Origin: Naegleria gruberi | Lineage: Eukaryota | Assembly: GCA_000004985.1 (NCBI GenBank) | Contig: GG738915.1 | DNA length: 64,000 bases | Reading direction: 5' to 3' (one strand) | Shown here: positions 2,623 to 49,790 of the stretch, piece after piece | How positions within the stretch are numbered: the stretch's first letter is position 1 | Layout of the letters: each line of letters opens with the position of its first letter | Made by a program: the position numbers and the translations under genes | Notes under the pieces: model-generated | Seen by the model: the letters and a program-made list of their open reading frames with translations, nothing else | Told to the model about the DNA's origin: nothing | The model's database searches: none

Positions 2623-2783
2623 TAATTTATTTTGTAAAAATTATAAATATTCAATATTTGGCCTCTGCACTAAGGAAAGGTTTTCTTTACAAGTATTTAA
2701 TACTCCGCTTTCCTTGTGAAAATTTCCAATAGTTTAAATTTAGGATATTTGAATATACCTCCAATTTTCAATTTCATAAAAAC

Positions 2784-5069
2784 CTAATTAATGGTATTAC
2801 TTTGAATTGTGTAAGCAATTTTCCAATTTTTAAATTCTCTCGTTGAGGCAAGTCTTAGAAAAGTATCTGATAAATTAGCATAGATTGGGGGATGAATAAT
2901 CTCAACCAATTGTCGAACTTTGGTTTTCTTATTGGAATTATTCGAAATGTTGTCATTTAAGGATTTTTCACATTCGTTCAGTAATTCGTAGAAATTTCTC
3001 CTCACAGTTGATTGAATATTAACTTCGAAAATCGATTGACTTCTCATATATTTACATTCCAAATCTCTCAAATCGTCAATTTCTAAAGATTTATCAATTC
3101 CCTTTTTTGAAATTATTTTTTGTAAATCCATATTTAGCAAGTAGTTTTCAATAGACATTTCTTTAGAAGCATATTCTTTTAGAAGAATTTGAAATTCTGA
3201 ATTTTTCAAATAATTTTCCAATTGATCAAACTGACTAGAATTTGTTTGAATATTAGAATCATTTCCATATTTGGCATTTCTAATAAATTGAATAAACTCG
3301 GAAACTAAAACAGTTCCACCACAAATAAACATGAAACAGACAAACACCAAAAACCTAAAAAATCGACTCATTTCTATAAAAAATTCACTCGTTCCAGATC
3401 CATAAAATATAATTACTAAAATGGTATTCACAATTAAAAATACCAAAAGTAGCAAATCAATTCTAACAAGAAAAGGATCATCAAATAGGAGAAATCTTCT
3501 CAATCCCTTTTCCTTAATAATTTTCCTATTCACAATCATATCAAATACAATAGCTCCAAATCCCAACAAACAACCCAACACACAATACAAGACAATTGTT
3601 GCATTTCCCACAAGTAGATAGGTAAATTCAGCATCGTACAAATCAGTAAAGAAGAATGTCACTCCATGTATCGAAAATATCAAAGCAATCACAAGAGGAA
3701 TTGCCATTGTAAATAACAATCCATATTTCCATTCAGAGAATTTTCTCATTCTATGAATTACCTTATCACTATTCATTCCTTCAGCTTTTGTAATCAAAGT
3801 GTACAAATTTCTCAAATAGTAATAACGTACAACTGTCAAGCTATAGTTCATGACAATGAAACAGACCACAATCATTGAGAAATATCTCAGAAAATAGTAA
3901 CATGCATTATTCATAAAGGTGGAGAAACAAATTTCCAATGGAACGATGAATATTGGAAGGTAGGGAGTGAGTAATCTTCTGGTGAGTGATCGTTTTCTGA
4001 ATGCTTGACTGGCAAATAAGCAGAGAAAGTAACCTATTTCTATGATGGAACATGGAATGAGCCAATAATCTCCATTCGCGAAGGCAAAATCAACACATTG
4101 AGTCGTGACACATTTATGACATGTGGAAGGTAGAAAATTATTCAATAATTCCAGTAGAGTTTCGTTTGAGTTGTTACTATGTGTTGGTATTGAAATATTG
4201 TAAACTTTCAATGTATTCTTTACAATTTCGTCTAAAATCCAATATTGTGGTTTTTGTAAAGTAATTCCACTCACAAAATTAATGAAATTCAAATCAGAAT
4301 TTGACAAATTTCCAAACAGTTTCAATCTGGCCATCACGTTATTCATATCTTTATCTATATATGATGAACAATGTATTGTAAACTCATTGGAATTCGTGGA
4401 ATTGATAGTGGAATAATTATTGAGTGTGAAAAATCCATTCAATTGGTTCAAATTTTGCAAATCACTTAATTGGGTTAATTCTGATTGGGAAATGACGTTC
4501 AAAATTGATGGAACTAGAGGAAGAGGAATAAAATCAGATGGATTAATCAGAACGAAACTATCCGAATCTCTGTATAACCTCAAATAATCATAGAAATATT
4601 GTAATGTAGAAAATAAAACATCGTATTGCAAGAGAACGTTTTTAGGATTTCGACACGCATCTCCTGAAAATGTAAAATAATGAACTTTCAGATTTAAATT
4701 ATGAAACGAAACGAAACTCTGAAACTCTGAATAAAGTCTTTTTTCTACACCAATAGTAAGACGAGAGGATTCTTCCTTCAAAAATTCCACCATTGATTCG
4801 GTAGATTTCACCAGTGAATCGTCCAATTGATTAGTTTGGAATATTTTCCTCCAGACGAAAGCTGTCAAATAATCATTTACACTCACAATTGACTGCGACC
4901 GATCCACATAATAAATAGATTGTTGGGTTAGTGAAATATGTTTAGTAGTATCGAGAATAATTGTTTCCGATAACACGAATTTTGTTATTAAAATTAAAGT
5001 AAACGAAAGCAGAAGAAATAAATGATGAGAATTTCGTATACTTGATGTTGGTGAGTTCGTGACGTGCAT
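2784..5069 (-). CDS. Seven-transmembrane receptor with a C-terminal RGS domain (7TM-RGS, fungal GprK-like); N-terminal signal peptide and a large Cys-containing ectodomain
   Basis: 761-aa ORF. It begins with a hydrophobic signal-like N-terminus (HLFLLLSFTLILITKFVLS) and has about 7 hydrophobic helices in the middle. The C-terminal ~130 aa align to the RGS fold (SEFQILLKEYASKEMSIENYLLNMDLQKI ... YMRSQSIFEVNIQSTVRRNFYELLNE ... IHPPIYANLSDTFLRLASTREFKNW). Confidence 0.6.
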   Translation of the reverse strand: MHVTNSPTSSIRNSHHLFLLLSFTLILITKFVLSETIILDTTKHISLTQQSIYYVDRSQSIVSVNDYLTAFVWRKIFQTNQLDDSLVKSTESMVEFLKEESSRLTIGVEKRLYSEFQSFVSFHNLNLKVHYFTFSGDACRNPKNVLLQYDVLFSTLQYFYDYLRLYRDSDSFVLINPSDFIPLPLVPSILNVISQSELTQLSDLQNLNQLNGFFTLNNYSTINSTNSNEFTIHCSSYIDKDMNNVMARLKLFGNLSNSDLNFINFVSGITLQKPQYWILDEIVKNTLKVYNISIPTHSNNSNETLLELLNNFLPSTCHKCVTTQCVDFAFANGDYWLIPCSIIEIGYFLCLFASQAFRKRSLTRRLLTPYLPIFIVPLEICFSTFMNNACYYFLRYFSMIVVCFIVMNYSLTVVRYYYLRNLYTLITKAEGMNSDKVIHRMRKFSEWKYGLLFTMAIPLVIALIFSIHGVTFFFTDLYDAEFTYLLVGNATIVLYCVLGCLLGFGAIVFDMIVNRKIIKEKGLRRFLLFDDPFLVRIDLLLLVFLIVNTILVIIFYGSGTSEFFIEMSRFFRFLVFVCFMFICGGTVLVSEFIQFIRNAKYGNDSNIQTNSSQFDQLENYLKNSEFQILLKEYASKEMSIENYLLNMDLQKIISKKGIDKSLEIDDLRDLECKYMRSQSIFEVNIQSTVRRNFYELLNECEKSLNDNISNNSNKKTKVRQLVEIIHPPIYANLSDTFLRLASTREFKNWKIAYTIQSNTIN

Positions 5070-41391: not shown

Positions 41392-44300
41392 ATGAATCAA
41401 CATTCACGTTCAACAAGATCATCATCCACTCCAACCCATAGCAATACCACCACAAGACAACCACAACAACAACAGCAACAACAATCAATTTTGCCACAAT
41501 ATAAAGATGTAATAGACAAGGTCAATGAGCCACTCTCACTCATCTACTTTGAATCGTCATCAGACGCAAAGGCTGCTAAAAGAACATTAAATTGGGGACT
41601 TTACTTTTACGAGCATGGTGAATATATTAAATCGAGAGAGGCTCTAATTAAATGTGGAGAAGTTATTTCGAAAATCAATTCTAAACTTTCTACCATTAAT
41701 AATAATAATGGCTCGACAATTTCATTATCATCAACAACATCTCAGGGAAATACAGAATTAGTACAAGGTAAGAGGAATTTTCAATGATTGCAAGTGTCAA
41801 TCAATTATAATGACAATTTAATTTACTTTAATAGTTGGAAAGGATTTACTTTATCGAATTATTCTACTTGTGGAATGTTTGGATAAGATTATGAAAGCAA
41901 AACATCAACAATCCATTGTAAAGAACCAAGCAACCAATTCACCACCTAAAACAACATCAAAACCAAATTCAACACCAACAAACAGTTCTTCTTCTAGTAG
42001 TAGCAGCACTCAGGGAACACTTTCTAGAATATCGAGTGGCATATTTTCAACAATCACGAGTAACTTTACATCTATCAAGAGTAATCTTCAGAAGGAGGGT
42101 TCCTCTTTGAATAATACTAATGGTAATAATGGTAGTAACTCGAAACTGATTCAATTATTCAACAATGTTGGAAATGTACTGAAAAAACCAAAGGAAGAGG
42201 TTGCAATACCCAATCTAGCAGACTCTTATGTACAGGATCAATATGTGTTTGTGGAATTTATAGATGAGAAGAAACCTAATGAGCAACAACAACATGTACA
42301 CAGCAATTTAACTAATTCTCCGAACGATGGAAACATCCCTCCTCTACAACAGGTCAGCTCCTCTAGGGATTCTCTCTCTAAATTACAAAAACGTTTGCAA
42401 ACTGTAATGAAAGGCTCCTCAACAACAACGAATACATCTTTACAACATCAACAACCACAACAGCAACAACAGGTAAATTTGACAGGTAGTGGTTCCTCCT
42501 TGTCAGCTTCCTCTCTTCCAGGTCCAATCAGATTATCCCTTGATGCCTTGCAAACATCAGCGTCTGCAACATCACCAAATGGAGAAGTGAAAAGAGGTCC
42601 ACAAACATCCAGACTCAAATCTTTTATTCAATACATGGAAGAGAGGAGTGGAACATGGAGTCCTGAAACAATTTCTGAGGAAGAGGTTAGGGAGATGGTG
42701 AGAGTACTCAATGAAAATTTAAAGATTTTGAGTACCTCATCAAATTACAAAACAATGGGAATTCTGGCACAAATGTACGATCAAATACGTCCCTATAAGA
42801 AGCAAGTTCTGAAAGAGCTCTCCAGTCAATCAACCAAAGACAAGAGCAAGAAGATTTTAATGTTAAAGAAAATTATTAGTATTGCATTTTCAACCAAAAT
42901 GGTAAATCACTATATTTCAAAAGAGGAAAATTATACAACACTTCAGGAAAATTTCCTTCAATATTTCGAGTTGGATCTCTTTACATTGCATTTGCTGAAT
43001 ATTTATGCAGCAGCTGAAAACTTTGATCACACAAACTTTTGCCTTTCACATCTAGTTGCTAACATTGAGCTATTTTCACAAGCAATTAATGATGTTAATC
43101 AATACCAAGTTGAGAAGAGACAAATTTACAAACAAGTGGATGAATTAATTTTTGGCCACCTCAGAAATAGAATAATCGAGTTGAAGTGGTGTTTTGGAGT
43201 TGACACGTTTGCATACGTGACTAATGATTTCGACAGTGACGCTCTCGAGTCACTAGAATTACTACTCAAGTGTCTTGATGGTTGGCTTAAAATCAAAACA
43301 CAAATGGGTGACTATAGTGTAAATAATAGACCAACAATAGCAGCCATTTTAACAGAATGTTTGGCTCATTTTGTAAGAAAATTGTACATTCTCAACAGAG
43401 AAATGATATCAAATAATTTGAAACAATCTCCTCATTTGAGAGGTTTCTTTTTGGAAGCATCTTTTGACATGAATCTCTCAACATTTGTTGTAGATGAGAC
43501 GAAACAATTGTGTTCTAGGTTTGCTTCCTACTTTGACAAGTATTTTGAAAATACTGCTCAATTTAAAGATATTGTAGCAGTCGAGTTTTCTAAACATTTA
43601 TCAGTGGAAGTTAAGGCATTCTGTCAGGAAGCTCTCAAATATCAACAGGCATGTATGGAACAAGCAAAGAAAAATAAGTTTTTGAGAGTTTACTTTAACG
43701 ACTTGAATTTGGGTGTTCTGAATAAGTTGGTGTCCCACTTTGTGACCAAGTACAGAATTCTTCAAGAACTGTCGCCATGTGTAAAAGATTTTGAAATTGA
43801 ATCTTTCTATGAAATTGTGAGTATGTGCATTACAGTTGCTACTCCAAACAGACTGAAAGATTTTTACTCAAAGGTCATGAGTATGGACACACTAGATAAA
43901 CCAATCGACAAGACAGTCCTTTATACATTCTCCTGTATAGATATGGCTAATGCAAGTCTCAAACCAATTCACATGATTTACAATTTGGACACTCTTATTA
44001 GAAATGGAAATGACAAGTATTTGAGTTTTTTAACTCTGCATTTTGAAGCTATTAGACCAACCATTTCCGAATATTTACAATTAATGCTCAATAGATGTAA
44101 ATATGAATTATCCAAAGTGCAGGGAAATGTCCATGACAGAATACGTTTAGCATGTATTGCCTTCAACAATGTCAATGGACTTTTCATGTATGCCAAAGAT
44201 ATCCTGCAACAATTTAACAGTTCAGTATGTGATCAACTGTTGGAAGACTATGACAGAAAGGTTAATCCAGAGGAAGAATCTGATCAGTTCAACATTAATA

Positions 44301-45226
44301 TACTCCAAGAAAAGTTGATTCAAGTTTATGATTTTCCAAGCGTAAAATCCATCACAAATGAGATAAGAATGGTCACTACAGATATGGCCTTCTTTATTGC
44401 TGACTGGTTGTATAATATGAATGAACAGAGATTTGAGGCAATTTTTAACATTGCATCCAATGGTTCACCTCAAGAAAAATTGTTCATTTTCCTGTCCTCT
44501 TTGGATAGGTTTTTTATGCATTTGTCAGACAATCTCTACTTGGAATTGTTACACGAGGTTCTACGACACTTATATGTAATCTATGTACAAAAATTAGTAA
44601 GAAACAAACTCTTAGGATACAAGCAAAAGAGTCCACTGAACGCCTCTGAATTACTTTCTCCTATTACTGGTATGGATGGTGCAACACCATTCTCTCCAAA
44701 TACATCACCAGTTCCATCACATTTTCCTACCTTTGAATCATCCCAGAAAGTAACTGTTCAATTATGTTTGGATGGACTCAAGGATTTATTCAATGCTTCA
44801 GGAGAAGGTTTGGATTCAAAATTCCTCGATCAACAATCACGAGAATTGGACATTTTAATATTGATCTATAATGACGAAACAGATATTTTGATTAATTTAT
44901 ATGAGAATCTTATTGGAGAAAGAGTTGATGATAAGTATTTAACAAGTCTCTATCAACGATTGGCACCTCAATCACCAAATTTGAACATGCCATCGTCTGT
45001 CTCAATGCCATCATTGGATGATAGTGATTCTATTTCCATAGCAAGTAGCAGCAGCTCTACAGATTCATTCATCCTGCTTTCACTCCAAGAGGCCATCAGT
45101 AGTAAGAGAAAGAATTCTGATTTCCTTTCTCCAGAACTTATTCTCCTCCTACTCAATCAGAGGAAGAAAGATAGAACAGCTAGATCATATGCAAGAAGGA
45201 GACTGAAAGAATTGAAAGAAAAATAA
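41392..45226 (+). CDS. Large hypothetical protein (~1250 aa), two exons (41392..41779, 41838..45226)
   Basis: ORF 41392..41787 ends at a GTAAGA donor (41780); the acceptor TTTAATAG ends at 41837. Splicing joins ...NTELVQ to VGKDLLYRIILLVECLDKIMKAKHQ..., the frame of the 1118-aa ORF. Q/N/S-rich N-terminal region, then a long alpha-helical-looking body without recognisable motifs. Confidence 0.5.
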
Positions 45227-45281: not shown

Positions 45282-47529
45282 TTATTTGGTGTTTGGAGTA
45301 TCAACAAAATCCCAACGTGAGCAGTCAACAACCAATGACTGTGCCAATAATAATCTCATTTTACAAATCCTATCGTCTGGATCAATGCTAGCAACTTGTT
45401 CTAGTAGTTGCTCTGCAGAAATAGGATCAAACCTATCTCGGCAAAATAAGTGGGAAATAGCTTTCTCAAACATTTCTTTAGTTGACCGTTTCTTACAATT
45501 TTCAAAAGGTATAATTTCCATAATTTCTACGTAATTTCTCTTACCCACTACACAGATTTTCCCAATCGATCGACAACTCCCTCCCTCTCCCAGAAAAATC
45601 GGTGAACAAGAATCAGTTACACTTTTCGATACTAGAATCTTGGCATCGTAATATTTCGTCAGAGATTCTAATCGAGCAGATAAATTGACTGCATCCCCAA
45701 CTATGGTTGGATCCATTCTCTTTGACTCTCCAATCAAGCCAACTGCACATCGTCCTCTGACAATTCCACATCCTATTGAAATAGGACCAACGATTGGTGA
45801 CACACTCTCATTAAAAACCAGAACACAATTTTGAATTTCAATCGATGCTTTCAGTGCATGGCCTGGCTCTGTAAATAGGGCAATAAATCCATCACCTTAA
45901 TAAAGTTCGTTCATAAATTTCTAAATTCTCGAATGAACATACCCATATATTTATCAATATATCCACAATTTCTCCTCACAATCGGACCAACCAAAGCCAA
46001 ATATCGATTCAATAATTTGAACATTTGATCAGTTGGTAGCCTCTCACTCATTGAAGTATAATTTCGAATATCAACAAACATAATATCCAACTCCTTCTCA
46101 AAGAAATCACCATGATGCAAATCTGTCACCTTCTGCTTATTGATAATGGACATGAATTCTCGTGGCACGAATTTGTAAACCATATCCTCTTGGAGACGCA
46201 ACATTTTCTTCCAAGGTCCTAGAATAGTTTTCGAAAATAGCAACGCCACCAATGCTGCCACAAGAACCACAATTACTATAACAATGGTAAATGCAATTAA
46301 TGAATCGGTAGCATTCAAACCAATTTGATTCGAATAGTCTAATAAGACCAATCTCATTCGATCTTCCACAATCCCTAAAAGAATTCATGCACAGAGTCAT
46401 GTTAAAAAACCATTCTTCAAGTGTATACTTTGTTAAATTTTGATAATTATCCAAGACATAATCTTCCATACTCTGACAGATATTTTGCTGAGTATCATTG
46501 AGAATATTTGTAAGGAATTCTGTGTAAATTTCATTGGATGCCTGAAGAGAGAATAAGTGTCGAACCAAGATTCCCTATAATACATTTAAAGATTTTGGTA
46601 AAAGTTGTTTTTCTTACACCACAATATTCAAAATTACTTACTTTAATGACTGCTTCTTTGAATGAATCAATCGAAGCTTGAGACAAACTTCCATTCATAA
46701 ATCCAAATGTTCCATAAATTCTTCTAATTCCTCGATATTCCCTAGCTGCGGAAAGTAAGTTGAATGAATTGTGAATTATTGCAAAAGTTGGATCCAAACT
46801 TTGACTTGTTACAACTCTAATCATATCATTGATCAAAGAATCCCAATCGTTGATGTATTGGATTGTTGGTAAAAAGGTTTCGTTCGTAACATTCTCCACT
46901 TTCATTCTCCACTCTCCAACACCTTTCGAATAACCAATGACCTTTCCCAAATAATCCTCAAACAAATACCACGTCCTTTTCCACTGTTCATTAATCAAAA
47001 TATCGTTTGGGCTTACCGAAAGTGCGAAGAACCTTTCGATAGCATTGTCAGTTCGATTTCTTGCTTCAGCTAATTCAATTGTATACTGCCTCTTATGAGA
47101 ACCTAGATAAAGAGATGTGATTCCTCTTTCATTTTGCAAACAATCACCAAGTTCTGAGAGATGCATTGTCACTCTTGATAGTTTTTTAATCTCATTCGCA
47201 TGGTTCAAGTTGACCGCAGCAGAATTAATCAGTAAGGCACCAAATACTGCCATAGGAATCAAGCAAAATGCAATAATGAGGGCCAATTTAATGATGAGAG
47301 GTATTTTCTCCAAGATTCTTATTGGAAAGAAACTATTAAACAAGGATTTGTTCATTATGGATTGAGAAGTTATTTTGGATTTGTGTCCTTTCTCAGTGAT
47401 TGGAACTGTGGTTGATGGTTCCTCGAAGGTATCTGGTACAGTACCAGATATACGTTTTGCATGCAATGTTCTTTCTGCATTGTGTTCTACTTGTTGTTGT
47501 TGGGGCGTTTCAATATTCGAAACCTCCAT
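45282..47529 (-). CDS. Membrane-bound class III nucleotidyl (adenylyl/guanylyl) cyclase with an extracellular NIT-like sensor domain; at least 4 exons
   Basis: Exon 1 (47529..46642) encodes a cytoplasmic N-terminus, TM1 (LIIKLALIIAFCLIPMAVFGALLI) and a sensor domain with LSELGDCLQNERGITSLYLGS, reminiscent of the NIT domain ELQ-ERG-S-x-x-YL-S signature. A 67-nt intron lies at 46575..46641 (GTAAGT...TATAG). Exon 2 continues the sensor (GILVRHLFSLQASNEIYTEFLTNILNDTQQ...). TM2 (LIAFTIVIVIVVLVAALVALLF) is followed by the cyclase core FEKELDIMFVDIRNYTSM...YIDKYMG | 47-nt intron (45896..45942) | DGFIALFTEPGHALKASIEIQNC...GPISIGCGIVRGRCAVGLIGESKRMDPTIVGDAVNLSARLES. The exon junction near 46370 is unresolved. 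Confidence 0.65.
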
Positions 47530-48440: not shown

Positions 48441-49790
48441 ATGAAAAAGAAAATGAATCCATTTGCCTTGCTTGATTTCCATTTGCCTCATAGATTTTCC
48501 TTACATGGTACGGAATCAAAGTATTTTGATCAGGTGCATGTTACCAAGGCCAATGATGAACATACTACTCTACAGGCAGTTGTTGGTGGTGATTCACCAA
48601 CTTGTTTAAAAGAAGAACAATCTTTATGTAATACTAATAATAATAATGGCGGAAATTGCTCCCCTTGTAATACTATGACCAATATTAGAAATAATACATT
48701 AAATAATCAAAGTGATGGATGTTGTCTCACTGAAGAAGACTCTGAAATATTGAATTGTTACTACAGTTCATCCATGTTTCTTCATGTGATCGCAAGGCAA
48801 GAGCTTGAACGTTTCTTACAAGATTCATCATCCAATTCCTCAAAGGCCAACACTCTGGAAATGATAGAAATGATGACCTTGTATTATTCCATCAAGGCAA
48901 CTTGTGAACTCCAGATGGGACGAATGGACAAATATGAAATCTCGGGAATGAAGGCAATGGAGAATCTTGTCAAACTTTCAAGTACAAACTTGGCGATTGC
49001 TGGAAGCTACCTTAATATGTGCTTGCTTGAATTGTGGAATGATAGATTTGATATTGCAAAATTGTATTTTGCAAAGGTTATGACCTTCAAACCATACTTT
49101 GAGAATGCATCGGAAGGACAGTATGAGTACAAATTATTGAAAGATGACCTCAATATCTCAGTCAAGTTATTGGAGTATACTCTATTCAATGCTGATGTTA
49201 ACAATCTTCATCATTTATTGTTTGAAAGGTTTCTTGTAAATTTACCAACTCTCTTTTCGTATTATAGAACTGGGCAAGCGCTCATTAATGAATGGAACCA
49301 CATTCTAAAGAATCCTCACCTTATCAATTCATCAAATTGTATGCAAGTTCATATGCTGATATTGACACTCTTGAGGGATTGTAAAAAGTATGAAGAAGAT
49401 ACAAAGGGACGATCAGAAAATCTCACTTTACTGTACGACTTTTTGGAAAGTGGGATAACATTGGCTCTGTTATCCAAATGCTCTGAAAAAACGCCCATGA
49501 TTGAGTATACCATTGAATCAAGTGCAAAGAGAATTGTCAAGTCAATTAAGAATCCAAATTTTGAATCTGCTCCATTTGAAGTGATCATTTATCTTTCATT
49601 TGCTGCAGAGCATCACTTGAAAAGGATTCTACAAGGTGTTTTATCAAGAGACTCGATGAATTATGTTGAAATGCTTCGAGATACACTCAATGCATACAAA
49701 TCTCTTCAATCCAGATTTAAAATAGCCAATTTTTACTATTATGGGGGAGTATTCCAACAAGTGGATTTATACTTCTGTAATAAAGCGTAA
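48441..49790 (+). CDS. Paralog of the Zn2Cys6 regulator family, with a degenerate or absent zinc cluster
   Basis: 449-aa ORF colinear with 50007..51719 (MNPFALLDFHL vs MNPFLVLDFHL; LYYSIKATCELQMGRMDKYEISGMKAMENL vs LYYSIKATCECQMGQIDKAELSAKQAKEYL; KNPHLINSSNCMQVHMLILTLLRDCKKYEED vs KNPHLIDSTNCVQVNTLLQNLLRECKRYEQN). Cys spacing in the N-terminal region does not fit CX2CX6C. The start is probably Met 48453. Confidence 0.5.
   Translation: MKKKMNPFALLDFHLPHRFSLHGTESKYFDQVHVTKANDEHTTLQAVVGGDSPTCLKEEQSLCNTNNNNGGNCSPCNTMTNIRNNTLNNQSDGCCLTEEDSEILNCYYSSSMFLHVIARQELERFLQDSSSNSSKANTLEMIEMMTLYYSIKATCELQMGRMDKYEISGMKAMENLVKLSSTNLAIAGSYLNMCLLELWNDRFDIAKLYFAKVMTFKPYFENASEGQYEYKLLKDDLNISVKLLEYTLFNADVNNLHHLLFERFLVNLPTLFSYYRTGQALINEWNHILKNPHLINSSNCMQVHMLILTLLRDCKKYEEDTKGRSENLTLLYDFLESGITLALLSKCSEKTPMIEYTIESSAKRIVKSIKNPNFESAPFEVIIYLSFAAEHHLKRILQGVLSRDSMNYVEMLRDTLNAYKSLQSRFKIANFYYYGGVFQQVDLYFCNKA

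What the first reader, a model, noticed from the sequence alone, without database searches (positions are those of the whole stretch)
45282..47529. Receptor-type class III nucleotidyl cyclase with an extracellular NIT-like sensor domain between two transmembrane helices
The minus-strand gene encodes TM1, a ~250-aa extracytoplasmic domain containing LQNERGITSLYLGS (very like the ELQ-ERG-S-x-x-YL-S hallmark of nitrate/nitrite-sensing NIT domains), TM2, and a single class III cyclase catalytic domain (FVDIRNYTS ... DKYMGDGFIALF ... RIGIHSG-like GIVRGRCAVGLIG ... GDAVNLSARLES). Fungal adenylate cyclases are normally the large Ras-regulated LRR/PP2C-containing Cyr1 type. A single-domain membrane cyclase with a NIT-type chemosensor is typical of bacterial signalling. 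In a eukaryote it would be an unusual environmental (possibly nitrate/nitrite or other small-anion) sensor coupled directly to cAMP/cGMP synthesis. The cyclase domain would need to dimerise. Substrate-specifying residues could be read to predict ATP versus GTP.
Basis: partly seen in the sequence, partly recalled or inferred. Interest (0 to 1): 0.8.

Follow-up and report, generated by a model that had tools for sequence, protein, structure and literature searches.

The report
Naegleria NIT-sensor adenylate cyclase, frame-broken
This is a gene of the amoeboflagellate Naegleria gruberi, not a fungus, for a membrane receptor that joins an outside nitrate/nitrite-type (NIT) sensor to an inside cAMP-making enzyme; the design is already known, and this copy is interrupted by one extra base.

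Summary
The motifs and coordinates are real. The minus strand at 47529-45282 carries TM1, a full NIT domain (Pfam 77.8 bits; AlphaFold model matches only NasR), TM2 and one class III cyclase domain (45.5 bits). The cyclase has all six catalytic residues, with a Lys/Thr pair that predicts ATP.

Three corrections:
- **Host.** The window is Naegleria gruberi (Heterolobosea), not a fungus.
- **Reading frame.** The parts are not one open frame. A single extra T at 46370, at the NIT/TM2 boundary, shifts the frame. The reference annotation therefore stops at a 441-aa NIT-only protein. A related Naegleria contig and N. lovaniensis read straight through this site. The downstream cyclase shows strong purifying selection (dN/dS 0.12) and no excess change on this lineage. 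The shift is therefore an assembly error, one allele, or very recent.
- **Novelty.** TM-NIT-TM-cyclase is already described in animals. Intact copies occur in an N. gruberi paralogue, N. lovaniensis and Willaertia, plus a damaged gene model in N. fowleri.

The ligand is untested. The pocket arginines are kept, but a His conserved in 98% of NIT domains is Asp here. Verdict: a new member of a known kind, of modest interest.

The parts
46642..47529 (-). Exon 1 (aa 1-296). Contains the N-terminal cytosolic tail (aa 1-75), TM1 (aa 76-101, nt 47304-47227) and the first two thirds of the NIT domain, including LQNERG (R135) and RGIRRIYG (R270).
   Evidence: ORF. It is identical to annotated P0001. Pfam NIT starts at aa 129. 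Hydropathy peak. Indels against L001 are multiples of three only.
46575..46641 (-). Intron 1, 67 nt, GTAAGT...TATAG.
   Evidence: Removing it restores GILVRHLFSLQ, which aligns with N. lovaniensis GILLQRHLKLL and is the splice used in P0001. Against L001 it has 4 gap openings and 78% identity, as expected of an intron.
46371..46574 (-). Exon 2 segment in the upstream frame (aa 297-364). This is the last third of the NIT domain, including W351 and R363.
   Evidence: There are no indels against L001 over these bases, including the 97 nt that could be mistaken for an intron.
46370..46370 (-). Extra T (GAT-T-GTG) that shifts the reading frame by +1 between NIT residue D364 and V365. It is the only coding indel against the related Naegleria contig that is not a multiple of three.
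   Evidence: DNA alignment: window GGGATTGTGG versus L001 GGAA-TGTGG. L001 encodes an uninterrupted 707-aa protein. N. lovaniensis has one ORF across the site, and its tblastn homology to the window switches frame at 46369/46368.
45943..46369 (-). Segment in the downstream frame (aa 365-507). Contains the end of NIT, TM2 (aa 388-409, nt 46300-46235), the juxtamembrane linker LQEDMVYKFVPREFMSIINK, and the first half of the cyclase domain (D464, K504).
   Evidence: 94.5% nt identity to L001 with no gaps.
45896..45942 (-). Intron 3, 47 nt, GTATGT...TTAAG. It splits the codon of G507 inside DKYMG|DGF.
   Evidence: Splicing restores the DKYMGDGFIALF motif. Against L001 there are 10 gap columns. N. 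lovaniensis lacks this intron.
45282..45895 (-). Exon 4 (aa 507-710 plus TAA at 45284-45282). Contains the second half of the cyclase domain (D508, T570, N577, R581; the Pfam match ends at aa 626) and a ~70-aa helical C-terminal tail.
   Evidence: The tail is collinear to the last residues with bacterial 7TMR-DISM class IIIb cyclases.

Best explanation
The locus is a Naegleria gruberi member of a heterolobosean family of receptor-type adenylate cyclases. The layout is a short cytosolic N-terminus, TM1, an extracellular NIT domain of about 285 aa (two four-helix bundles, as in NasR), TM2, a conserved linker of about 45 aa, one class IIIb catalytic domain and a helical C-terminal tail.

**Shown.**
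- Domain identities, the NIT fold and the two-TM hydropathy pattern.
- All six catalytic residues lie in one chain (D464 and D508 for metals, K504 and T570 for substrate, N577 and R581 for the transition state). The enzyme can therefore work as a homodimer with two symmetric sites and should use ATP.
- The residues equivalent to the NasR nitrate-pocket arginines are conserved (R135, R270, R363).
- The whole cytoplasmic module is collinear with bacterial class IIIb cyclases.

**Inferred.** A small oxyanion, most likely nitrate or nitrite, binds at the interface of the two helical bundles outside the cell. The resulting helix movement passes through TM2 and the FVPxEF linker to the catalytic dimer and changes cAMP synthesis.

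**Caveat for this copy.** In the assembly the frame is broken by one extra T at 46370, exactly at the NIT/TM2 junction. Read literally, the locus yields only a 441-aa TM1-NIT protein. The downstream part is intact and still looks selected. I therefore read the break as an assembly error, a single-allele variant or a very recent mutation. It is not an old pseudogene.
For: - **Pfam.** NIT 77.8 bits and Guanylate_cyc 45.5 bits on the frame-corrected 710-aa model. The literal annotated protein has NIT only.
- **Fold.** AlphaFold2 with an 82-sequence alignment gives pLDDT 93.2 and pTM 0.90. Foldseek against the PDB finds only NasR 4AKK as significant (E 2.5e-6, TM 0.80-0.83, rmsd 3.1 A).
- **Cyclase.** Best solved relatives are CyaB (3r5g, E 4e-19), bPAC, OaPAC and Spirulina CyaC, all adenylate cyclases. 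FVDIRNYT, IDKYMGDG and MDPTIVGDAVNLSARLES align with FSDIRGFT, IDKFVGD and MDYTIIGREVNLASRLES. These residues are invariant across the complete gene models in the family alignment.
- **Cytoplasmic module.** 37% identical over 297 aa, to the C-terminus, with a bacterial 7TMR-DISM cyclase.
- **Pocket residues.** Mapped from NasR (PMC9581486, PMC7496416; alignment). In 82 NIT domains Q132, E134, R135, R208, E264 and R270 match columns that are 99-100% conserved.
- **Family.** N. gruberi paralogue NAEGRDRAFT_75632, N. fowleri FDP41_005831, N. lovaniensis C9374_011351/2 and Willaertia magna ABK040_006932.
- **Frame break.**
- **Selection.** dN/dS is 0.12 downstream and 0.49 upstream of the break. 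Lineage-polarised changes downstream are 5 on this lineage and 5 on L001.
- **Topology.** Two hydropathy peaks. There are 8 N-x-S/T sequons in the 286-aa ectodomain against 4 in 376 cytosolic residues.
Against: - The sequence as given does not encode the full protein. No reads or transcripts were available to decide whether the extra T is real.
- Ligand identity is untested. The His three residues before the LQxERG glutamine is His in 98% of 81 other NIT domains, but Asp here and Asn in L001. G146, Q156, E269 and A271 also deviate.
- The NIT domain evolves much faster than the cyclase (dN/dS 0.46 versus 0.11).
- Pfam scores for both domains are moderate, not high.
- No NIT domain from a eukaryote has been shown to bind anything in the papers I could read.
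Confidence: 0.75

Rival explanations
1. The extra T is genuine in strain NEG-M. The locus is then a very recently inactivated sensor gene, or it encodes only the annotated 441-aa TM1-NIT protein with an out-of-frame tail and no TM2 or cyclase.
For: The window and the reference annotation agree on the shifted frame (P0001). The insertion lies in a TT dinucleotide, not a long homopolymer where sequencing errors cluster. Large sensory families commonly carry fresh pseudogenes (general knowledge). TM-NIT proteins without an output domain exist in a pelagophyte alga (PMC9481584).
Against: The 346 codons downstream contain no further stop or indel. Their dN/dS is 0.12, and changes are symmetric between this lineage and L001 at 5:5. 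Any inactivation must therefore be very recent. P0001 probably derives from the same assembly, so the agreement is not independent.
Confidence: 0.4
2. The frame is rescued by splicing a 97-nt intron (46471-46375, GTATGG...TTTTAG). This would give a 678-aa receptor cyclase lacking 32 residues of the NIT domain.
For: It is the best-looking GT-AG pair that restores an open frame. The product still scores for NIT (62.7 bits) and cyclase under the first intron-1 model.
Against: - The removed stretch is coding in relatives. It has no indels and 87% identity to L001, whereas the true introns show gaps.
- The donor GT is GA in L001.
- N. lovaniensis and L001 read through the stretch.
- The deletion removes profile positions 190-235, including W351 (96% conserved) and the R363 pocket residue.
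Confidence: 0.05
3. The protein is a receptor cyclase, but its NIT domain senses something other than nitrate or nitrite, or it serves only as a dimerisation scaffold.
For: H129, which is His in 98% of NIT domains, is Asp here. Four other well-conserved positions also differ. The ectodomain has dN/dS 0.46. Ligand data exist only for a few bacterial NIT domains (PMC12358799, PMC9581486).
Against: The Q-x-E-R-G motif, R208, E264, R270 and R363 are retained. These include the arginines whose mutation abolishes (R50, R176) or reduces (R236) the nitrate response of NasR-based sensors (PMC9581486). The fold is unchanged.
Confidence: 0.35
4. The catalytic domain makes cGMP, as in the animal NIT receptor guanylyl cyclases.
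For: Animal TM-NIT-TM cyclases are assigned to the ANP-receptor guanylyl cyclase group (PMC7400543). Databases name the Naegleria relatives 'Guanylate cyclase domain-containing protein'.
Against: The specificity positions are Lys504 and Thr570, not Glu and Cys/Ser. The closest solved and unsolved relatives are class IIIb adenylate cyclases, and rhodopsin guanylyl cyclases score far lower. The database name is only the generic Pfam label.
Confidence: 0.08
5. One reading: an anomalous bacterial-type sensor cyclase in a fungal genome.
For: The output module is bacterial-like at 37% identity. After the heterolobosean proteins, the nearest NIT domains are bacterial chemoreceptors.
Against: The host is Naegleria. 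The gene has spliceosomal introns conserved in a related Naegleria. It also has eukaryotic paralogues and relatives in four heterolobosean species and on a metagenome contig carrying formin, RasGEF and kinesin genes.
Confidence: 0.02

Closest known systems
Heterolobosean NIT-cyclases: N. gruberi NAEGRDRAFT_75632 (XP_002669413), N. fowleri FDP41_005831, N. lovaniensis C9374_011351/011352, Willaertia magna ABK040_006932
   Same: Same TM1-NIT-TM2-linker-class III cyclase-tail layout and similar length (691-735 aa). Same catalytic residues and the same FSKTIxGPW / LQEDxVxKFVPxEF linker.
   Different: This copy is 43% identical to the N. lovaniensis protein, with no conserved neighbours. It carries Asp at the near-invariant His129 position. 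It is frame-broken in the assembly and annotated as NIT-only.
Animal NIT receptor guanylyl cyclases (insects, sea urchin, placozoans, many bilaterians; PMC1592074, PMC7400543)
   Same: Extracellular NIT domain between two TM helices, followed by one cyclase catalytic domain. Conserved arginines at the bundle interface. Proposed nitrate/nitrite sensing that has not been tested.
   Different: The animal proteins belong to the ANP-receptor guanylyl cyclase lineage and carry a signalling helix. This protein has a bacterial-type class IIIb module with Lys/Thr, predicting cAMP, and a different linker and C-terminal tail. The NIT-cyclase fusion probably arose independently. That inference was not tested by phylogeny.
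Bacterial NIT sensors: NasR (PDB 4AKK) and the NIT chemoreceptors PscN and Dd15070
   Same: Same fold (TM 0.80-0.83) and the same Q-x-E-R-G and E/K-R motifs. The bacterial domains bind nitrate and nitrite with micromolar affinity (PMC12358799, PMC9581486).
   Different: The outputs are ANTAR RNA binding or MCP signalling, not a cyclase. 93 of the 148 nearest NIT representatives are MCPs. Sequence identity is only 16-24%.
Bacterial class IIIb adenylate cyclases (P. aeruginosa CyaB 3r5g; 7TMR-DISM cyclases such as P0005; bPAC/OaPAC)
   Same: Catalytic domain, juxtamembrane FVPREF-type element and C-terminal helical tail are collinear. Identity is 37% over 297 aa, with Lys/Thr specificity.
   Different: The sensor is a 7TM, MASE, CHASE2 or BLUF module instead of a two-TM NIT ectodomain.

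Membership tests
NIT domain (Pfam PF08376) | Profile HMM score above the curated gathering threshold over the full domain | tested here: met
   77.8 bits against a cut-off of 24.9, E=2.1e-21, profile positions 4-235 of 239 on the frame-corrected model. The literal annotated protein scores 70.0 bits.
NIT domain (Pfam PF08376) | All-helical fold of two four-helix bundles, as in NasR | tested here: met
   AlphaFold2 pLDDT 93.2 and pTM 0.90. The only significant PDB matches are 4akk_A and 4akk_B, TM 0.83 and 0.80, rmsd 3.1-3.2 A.
NIT domain (Pfam PF08376) | Conserved pocket residues (NasR E49/R50, E175/R176, R236) | tested here: met
   E134/R135, R269/R270 and R363 align to them (residue roles from PMC9581486 and PMC7496416). 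The E175 equivalent is Arg here and Lys in most heterolobosean relatives.
NIT domain (Pfam PF08376) | Near-invariant His three residues before the LQxERG glutamine | tested here: not met
   It is Asp129 here and Asn in L001, against His in 98% of 81 other NIT domains. The role of this His is not stated in the papers I read.
NIT domain (Pfam PF08376) | Binds nitrate and/or nitrite | not testable with these tools
   Needs ITC or thermal shift on the ectodomain (aa 102-387).
Class III nucleotidyl cyclase (Pfam PF00211), subclass IIIb adenylate cyclase | Profile HMM score above the gathering threshold | tested here: met
   45.5 bits against a cut-off of 21.9, aa 458-626. CyaB 3r5g gives E=4.1e-19.
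Class III nucleotidyl cyclase (Pfam PF00211), subclass IIIb adenylate cyclase | Two metal-binding Asp plus the transition-state Asn and Arg, all in one chain (homodimer-competent) | tested here: met
   D464, D508, N577 and R581 align with the corresponding residues of CyaB, bPAC and OaPAC. They are conserved across the complete gene models in the family alignment.
Class III nucleotidyl cyclase (Pfam PF00211), subclass IIIb adenylate cyclase | Substrate-specifying Lys plus Thr (the IIIb replacement for Asp), as opposed to Glu/Cys in guanylyl cyclases | tested here: met
   K504 in IDKYMGD and T570 in MDPTIVGD. Assigning these positions to specificity rests on established class III cyclase knowledge.
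Class III nucleotidyl cyclase (Pfam PF00211), subclass IIIb adenylate cyclase | Dimerisation and cAMP synthesis | not testable with these tools
   Needs expression and an enzyme assay.
Two-TM receptor topology (ectodomain between two helices) | Exactly two hydrophobic helices flanking the sensor, with the cyclase on the opposite side | tested here: met
   Kyte-Doolittle 19-residue windows exceed 1.6 only at aa 76-99 and 388-408. Lys/Arg cluster after TM2. N-x-S/T sequons run at 2.8 per 100 aa in the ectodomain against 1.1 elsewhere. The orientation itself is inferred.
Animal NIT receptor guanylyl cyclases (ANP-receptor type) | Guanylyl-cyclase specificity residues and closest kinship to animal receptor guanylyl cyclases | tested here: not met
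   The residues are Lys/Thr, not Glu/Cys. The best non-Naegleria matches are bacterial class IIIb adenylate cyclases. The protein therefore shares the architecture but is not a member of that lineage.
Fungal Cyr1-type adenylate cyclase | Ras-association, LRR and PP2C domains; fungal host | tested here: not met
   No such Pfam domains appear at E<=1. The host is Naegleria.

The most novel reading that the evidence does not exclude
This protein, with its heterolobosean relatives, could be a direct extracellular nitrate/nitrite-to-cAMP receptor of a free-living bacterivorous amoeba. It would have arisen by an independent fusion of a NIT ectodomain to a bacterial-type class IIIb cyclase module. 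The fast-evolving ectodomain with His129 replaced by Asp could mark a shift in ligand specificity within the N. gruberi lineage. It would then be the first eukaryotic NIT domain with an assignable ligand and output, and a compact chemically gated adenylate cyclase.
Probability: 0.3. Interest if true: 0.5.

Novelty: new member of a known kind. Interest (0 to 1): 0.3.

Why it matters
Practically, the reference annotation of this N. gruberi locus (a 441-aa 'predicted protein' with NIT only) is probably wrong or describes a broken allele. The locus carries a complete receptor adenylate cyclase apart from one base.

Biologically, no ligand has been shown for any eukaryotic NIT domain in the papers I could read. 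A 710-aa, two-TM, homodimeric protein with a bacterial-like catalytic module is one of the simplest systems in which to test whether eukaryotes sense extracellular nitrate or nitrite through NIT and convert it to cAMP.

It does not change the picture of cyclase or NIT evolution. The architecture is already reported in animals, and intact copies are present in other Naegleria genes.

Tried and rejected
- **First splice model.** Donor at 46428 and acceptor at 46375 gave a frameshifted product. I enumerated all GT-AG pairs that restore the frame. None is credible as an intron, for the reasons given under the 97-nt intron rival.
- **First intron-1 acceptor.** The acceptor giving an intron of 46641-46542 was replaced by the 67-nt intron 46641-46575 after comparison with P0001 and N. 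lovaniensis.
- **NIT-only homology search.** The word-indexed search returned only self, near-self and one fragment. The exhaustive profile search was needed.
- I rebuilt it from allowed substrings.
- **Shallow-alignment AlphaFold.** The 4-sequence run gave pLDDT 43 and was discarded. The 82-sequence run was used.
- **Independent N. gruberi copies.** Exact-protein look-ups for other copies of the locus found nothing, so the extra T could not be checked against other data.
- **phmmer of the NIT region against PDB.** This gave only E=0.23 to NasR. The fold search was needed for a significant link.
- **Synteny.** There is none between the N. lovaniensis locus and the window, so orthology versus paralogy with C9374_011351 stays open.
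- **Literature.** The Naegleria genome paper (Fritz-Laylin 2010) and Monteagudo-Cascales 2023 are not held. My recollection that the former mentions NIT-containing cyclases is unverified.
- **Pfam on all 148 NIT hits.** This exceeded the size limit. I used a local phmmer and motif count instead.
Full report
**1. What is in the sequence**

The window has about 35% G+C throughout.

The gene model, refined against relatives, is as follows:
- Exon 1 is 47529-46642.
- Intron 1 is 46641-46575 (67 nt, GTAAGT..TATAG).
- A coding segment runs 46574-46371.
- One extra base lies at 46370.
- A coding segment in the next frame runs 46369-45943.
- Intron 3 is 45942-45896 (47 nt, GTATGT..TTAAG), inside the codon of G507 in DKYMG|DGF.
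- Exon 4 is 45895-45282, ending in TAA.

Skipping base 46370 gives a 710-aa protein. Its parts are:
- a cytosolic N-terminus (aa 1-75);
- TM1 (aa 76-101);
- an ectodomain (aa 102-387);
- TM2 (aa 388-409);
- a linker;
- a cyclase domain (Pfam aa 458-626);
- a C-terminal tail (to aa 710).

**2.

On the 710-aa model Pfam gives NIT PF08376 at E=2.1e-21 and 77.8 bits (cut-off 24.9), covering profile positions 4-235 of 239. It gives Guanylate_cyc PF00211 at E=8.4e-12 and 45.5 bits (cut-off 21.9). No CHASE, Cache, LRR or PP2C match appears, even at E<=1.

A 19-residue hydropathy scan gives exactly two peaks, at TM1 and TM2. The ectodomain is enriched in N-x-S/T sequons.

An AlphaFold2 model of aa 102-364 was poor with a 4-sequence alignment (pLDDT 43). 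With 82 NIT domains it was confident (pLDDT 93.2, pTM 0.90). Its only significant PDB match is the NasR nitrate sensor 4AKK (E 2.5e-6, TM 0.80-0.83, rmsd 3.1 A).

**3. The host is Naegleria, not a fungus**

The best database hit, P0001 ('predicted protein [Naegleria gruberi]', 441 aa), is identical to the window's own translation through exon 1, exon 2 and the out-of-frame tail.

Other close hits are N. lovaniensis C9374_011351 (714 aa, NIT plus cyclase, 43% identity) and its tandem neighbour C9374_011352.

An exhaustive profile search with the NIT region found 2799 proteins at E<=0.001. The nearest are listed here:
- N. fowleri FDP41_005831;
- the N. gruberi paralogue NAEGRDRAFT_75632 (735 aa, NIT 133 bits plus cyclase 53 bits);
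- N. lovaniensis C9374_009006;
- Willaertia magna ABK040_006932, plus five more W. magna proteins.

After these come bacterial chemoreceptors with one to three NIT domains. Among the 148 best representatives, 6 carry a cyclase like this one and 93 carry an MCP signature. One of the unnamed cyclase-bearing hits lies on a metagenome contig with formin, RasGEF, kinesin and RCC1 genes, so it is eukaryotic.

**4. The frame break**

Read literally, the upstream frame continues past D364 into ...CGRSNEIGLIRLFES... and stops. This is exactly the annotated P0001.

L001 is an ENA metagenome contig from a related Naegleria, 87% identical in protein. At this point it has GGAA-TGTGG where the window has GGGATTGTGG. 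It encodes an uninterrupted 707-aa protein with the same two introns.

N. lovaniensis has a single ORF across the site, reading ...AMRDVENYLRK..., and its tblastn homology to the window changes frame at 46369/46368.

Between the window and L001, this is the only coding indel whose length is not a multiple of three. The introns and flanks show many indels.

The best frame-restoring GT-AG pair (46471-46375, 97 nt) is not an intron:
- It has no indels against L001.
- Its donor GT is GA in L001.
- It would delete W351 and R363.

Nei-Gojobori dN/dS between the window and L001 is 0.49 upstream of the break and 0.12 downstream. For the NIT region it is 0.46 and for the cyclase 0.11. Polarising the amino-acid differences with five outgroups assigns 5 downstream changes to the window lineage and 5 to L001.

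The cyclase half therefore shows no decay. The extra T is an assembly error, one allele, or a very recent mutation, and I could not decide which. No other copy of the locus was retrievable.

**5. How it most likely works**

*Catalytic module.* The closest solved relatives are P. aeruginosa CyaB (3r5g, E 4e-19), bPAC, OaPAC and Spirulina CyaC. The alignments place D464 and D508 at the metal-binding positions, K504 and T570 at the substrate-specifying positions, and N577 and R581 at the transition-state positions. All six are conserved across the complete gene models in the heterolobosean family alignment.

From established class III cyclase knowledge, having all six in one chain means an active homodimer. 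Lys plus Thr is the class IIIb adenylate cyclase signature, whereas guanylyl cyclases have Glu plus Cys or Ser.

The whole cytoplasmic part is collinear with a bacterial 7TMR-DISM cyclase at 37% identity over 297 aa. This runs from the conserved LQEDxVYKFVPREF element just after TM2 to the last residues of the tail. I read that element as the counterpart of the cyclase transducer element described for class IIIa/b cyclases. That comparison rests on my own knowledge and was not tested.

*Sensor.* In NasR, R50 (LQCERG), E175/R176 (AGQERALG) and R236 form the proposed nitrate pocket. R50A and R176A sensors lose the nitrate response (PMC9581486, PMC7496416). These residues align with E134/R135, R269/R270 and R363 here.

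Across 82 NIT domains, Q132, E134, R135, R208, E264 and R270 sit at columns that are 99-100% conserved. W351 is 96% conserved. Bacterial NIT domains bind nitrate and nitrite with KD of 2-47 uM (PMC12358799).

The inferred mechanism is that an oxyanion binds between the two bundles outside the cell. Helix displacement then passes through TM2 and the linker and changes the geometry of the catalytic dimer and the cAMP output.

There are three cautions:
- H129 (His in 98% of the domains) is Asp here and Asn in L001.
- G146, Q156, E269 and A271 also deviate.
- The ectodomain evolves four times faster than the cyclase.

I put nitrate or nitrite as the ligand at roughly 0.35-0.4.

**6. Comparison with what is known**

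- TM-NIT-TM-cyclase was reported in insects and sea urchin in 2006 (PMC1592074). It was reported in placozoans and many bilaterians in 2020 (PMC7400543).
- NIT is listed among the domain compositions of the class III cyclase orthogroup shared by Euglena, Naegleria and Bodo (10.1101/228015).
- NIT with kinase, or alone between two TM helices, occurs in pelagophytes (PMC9481584).
[quoted passage not shown] I could confirm only its citation.

This protein shares the architecture of the animal proteins but not their lineage. Its output module is a bacterial-type class IIIb adenylate cyclase, not an ANP-receptor-type guanylyl cyclase.

**7. Verdict**

The locus is a new, mis-annotated or broken member of a known kind. 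Interest is modest at 0.3. The main value is a corrected gene model and a simple candidate for the first ligand test of a eukaryotic NIT domain.

Noticed in passing
window 41870-45226 (+) and 48441-49790 (+): The two flanking long ORFs (1118 aa and 449 aa) have no Pfam match at E<=0.001. Both have Ser/Asn/Gln-rich low-complexity stretches. The first converges on the cyclase gene, ending 56 nt from its stop codon.
   Followed up: partly
L002 8001-12754 (N. lovaniensis PYSW02000004.1): N. lovaniensis carries two NIT-cyclase genes in tandem. The second gene model (P0004, 558 aa) lacks most of the NIT domain, and it shares an identical TM2-to-mid-cyclase stretch with the first. This suggests recent duplication or gene conversion, or a gene-model error. 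None of the neighbouring genes (cactin, OGFOD2-like, GH39, HAD hydrolase) has a match in the window.
   Followed up: partly
P0058 (N. fowleri FDP41_005831), aa ~590-610: The annotated N. fowleri protein reads SDSKSLTPPLWS where all relatives have SD-VNLSARLES..., and it lacks about 25 residues after that. Pfam covers only cyclase profile positions 10-121. The gene model probably has a mis-called intron or a frameshift there.
   Followed up: no
L001 2510-3377 versus window 45281-45200: Similarity between the related Naegleria contig and the window ends a few bases after the stop codon. L001 continues with a different plus-strand ORF (2762-3376), whereas the window has a convergent gene. Gene order downstream is therefore not conserved.
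   Followed up: no
window 47226-46371 versus 46099-45495: The sensor and the enzyme halves evolve at very different rates between the window and L001. dN/dS is 0.46 for the NIT ectodomain and 0.11 for the cyclase. The Pfam NIT score is 78 bits here, 101 in L001 and 133 in the paralogue.
   Followed up: partly
PMC9581486, methods (primer list): Translated against the NasR motifs LQCERG and AGQERALG, the primers named R49A and R176A change the Glu codons (gaa to gca) and leave the Arg codons intact. Only the R50A primer changes cgg to gcg. I therefore mapped pocket residues by motif and by PMC7496416, not by these construct names.
   Followed up: partly
L003 6001-8094 and L004 6001-8106 (JGI metagenome contigs): Two further intron-free NIT-cyclase genes (697 and 701 aa), labelled 'adenylate cyclase', sit on environmental contigs. 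One contig has clearly eukaryotic neighbours (formin FH2, RasGEF, kinesin, RCC1). The family therefore extends to uncultured eukaryotes.
   Followed up: partly
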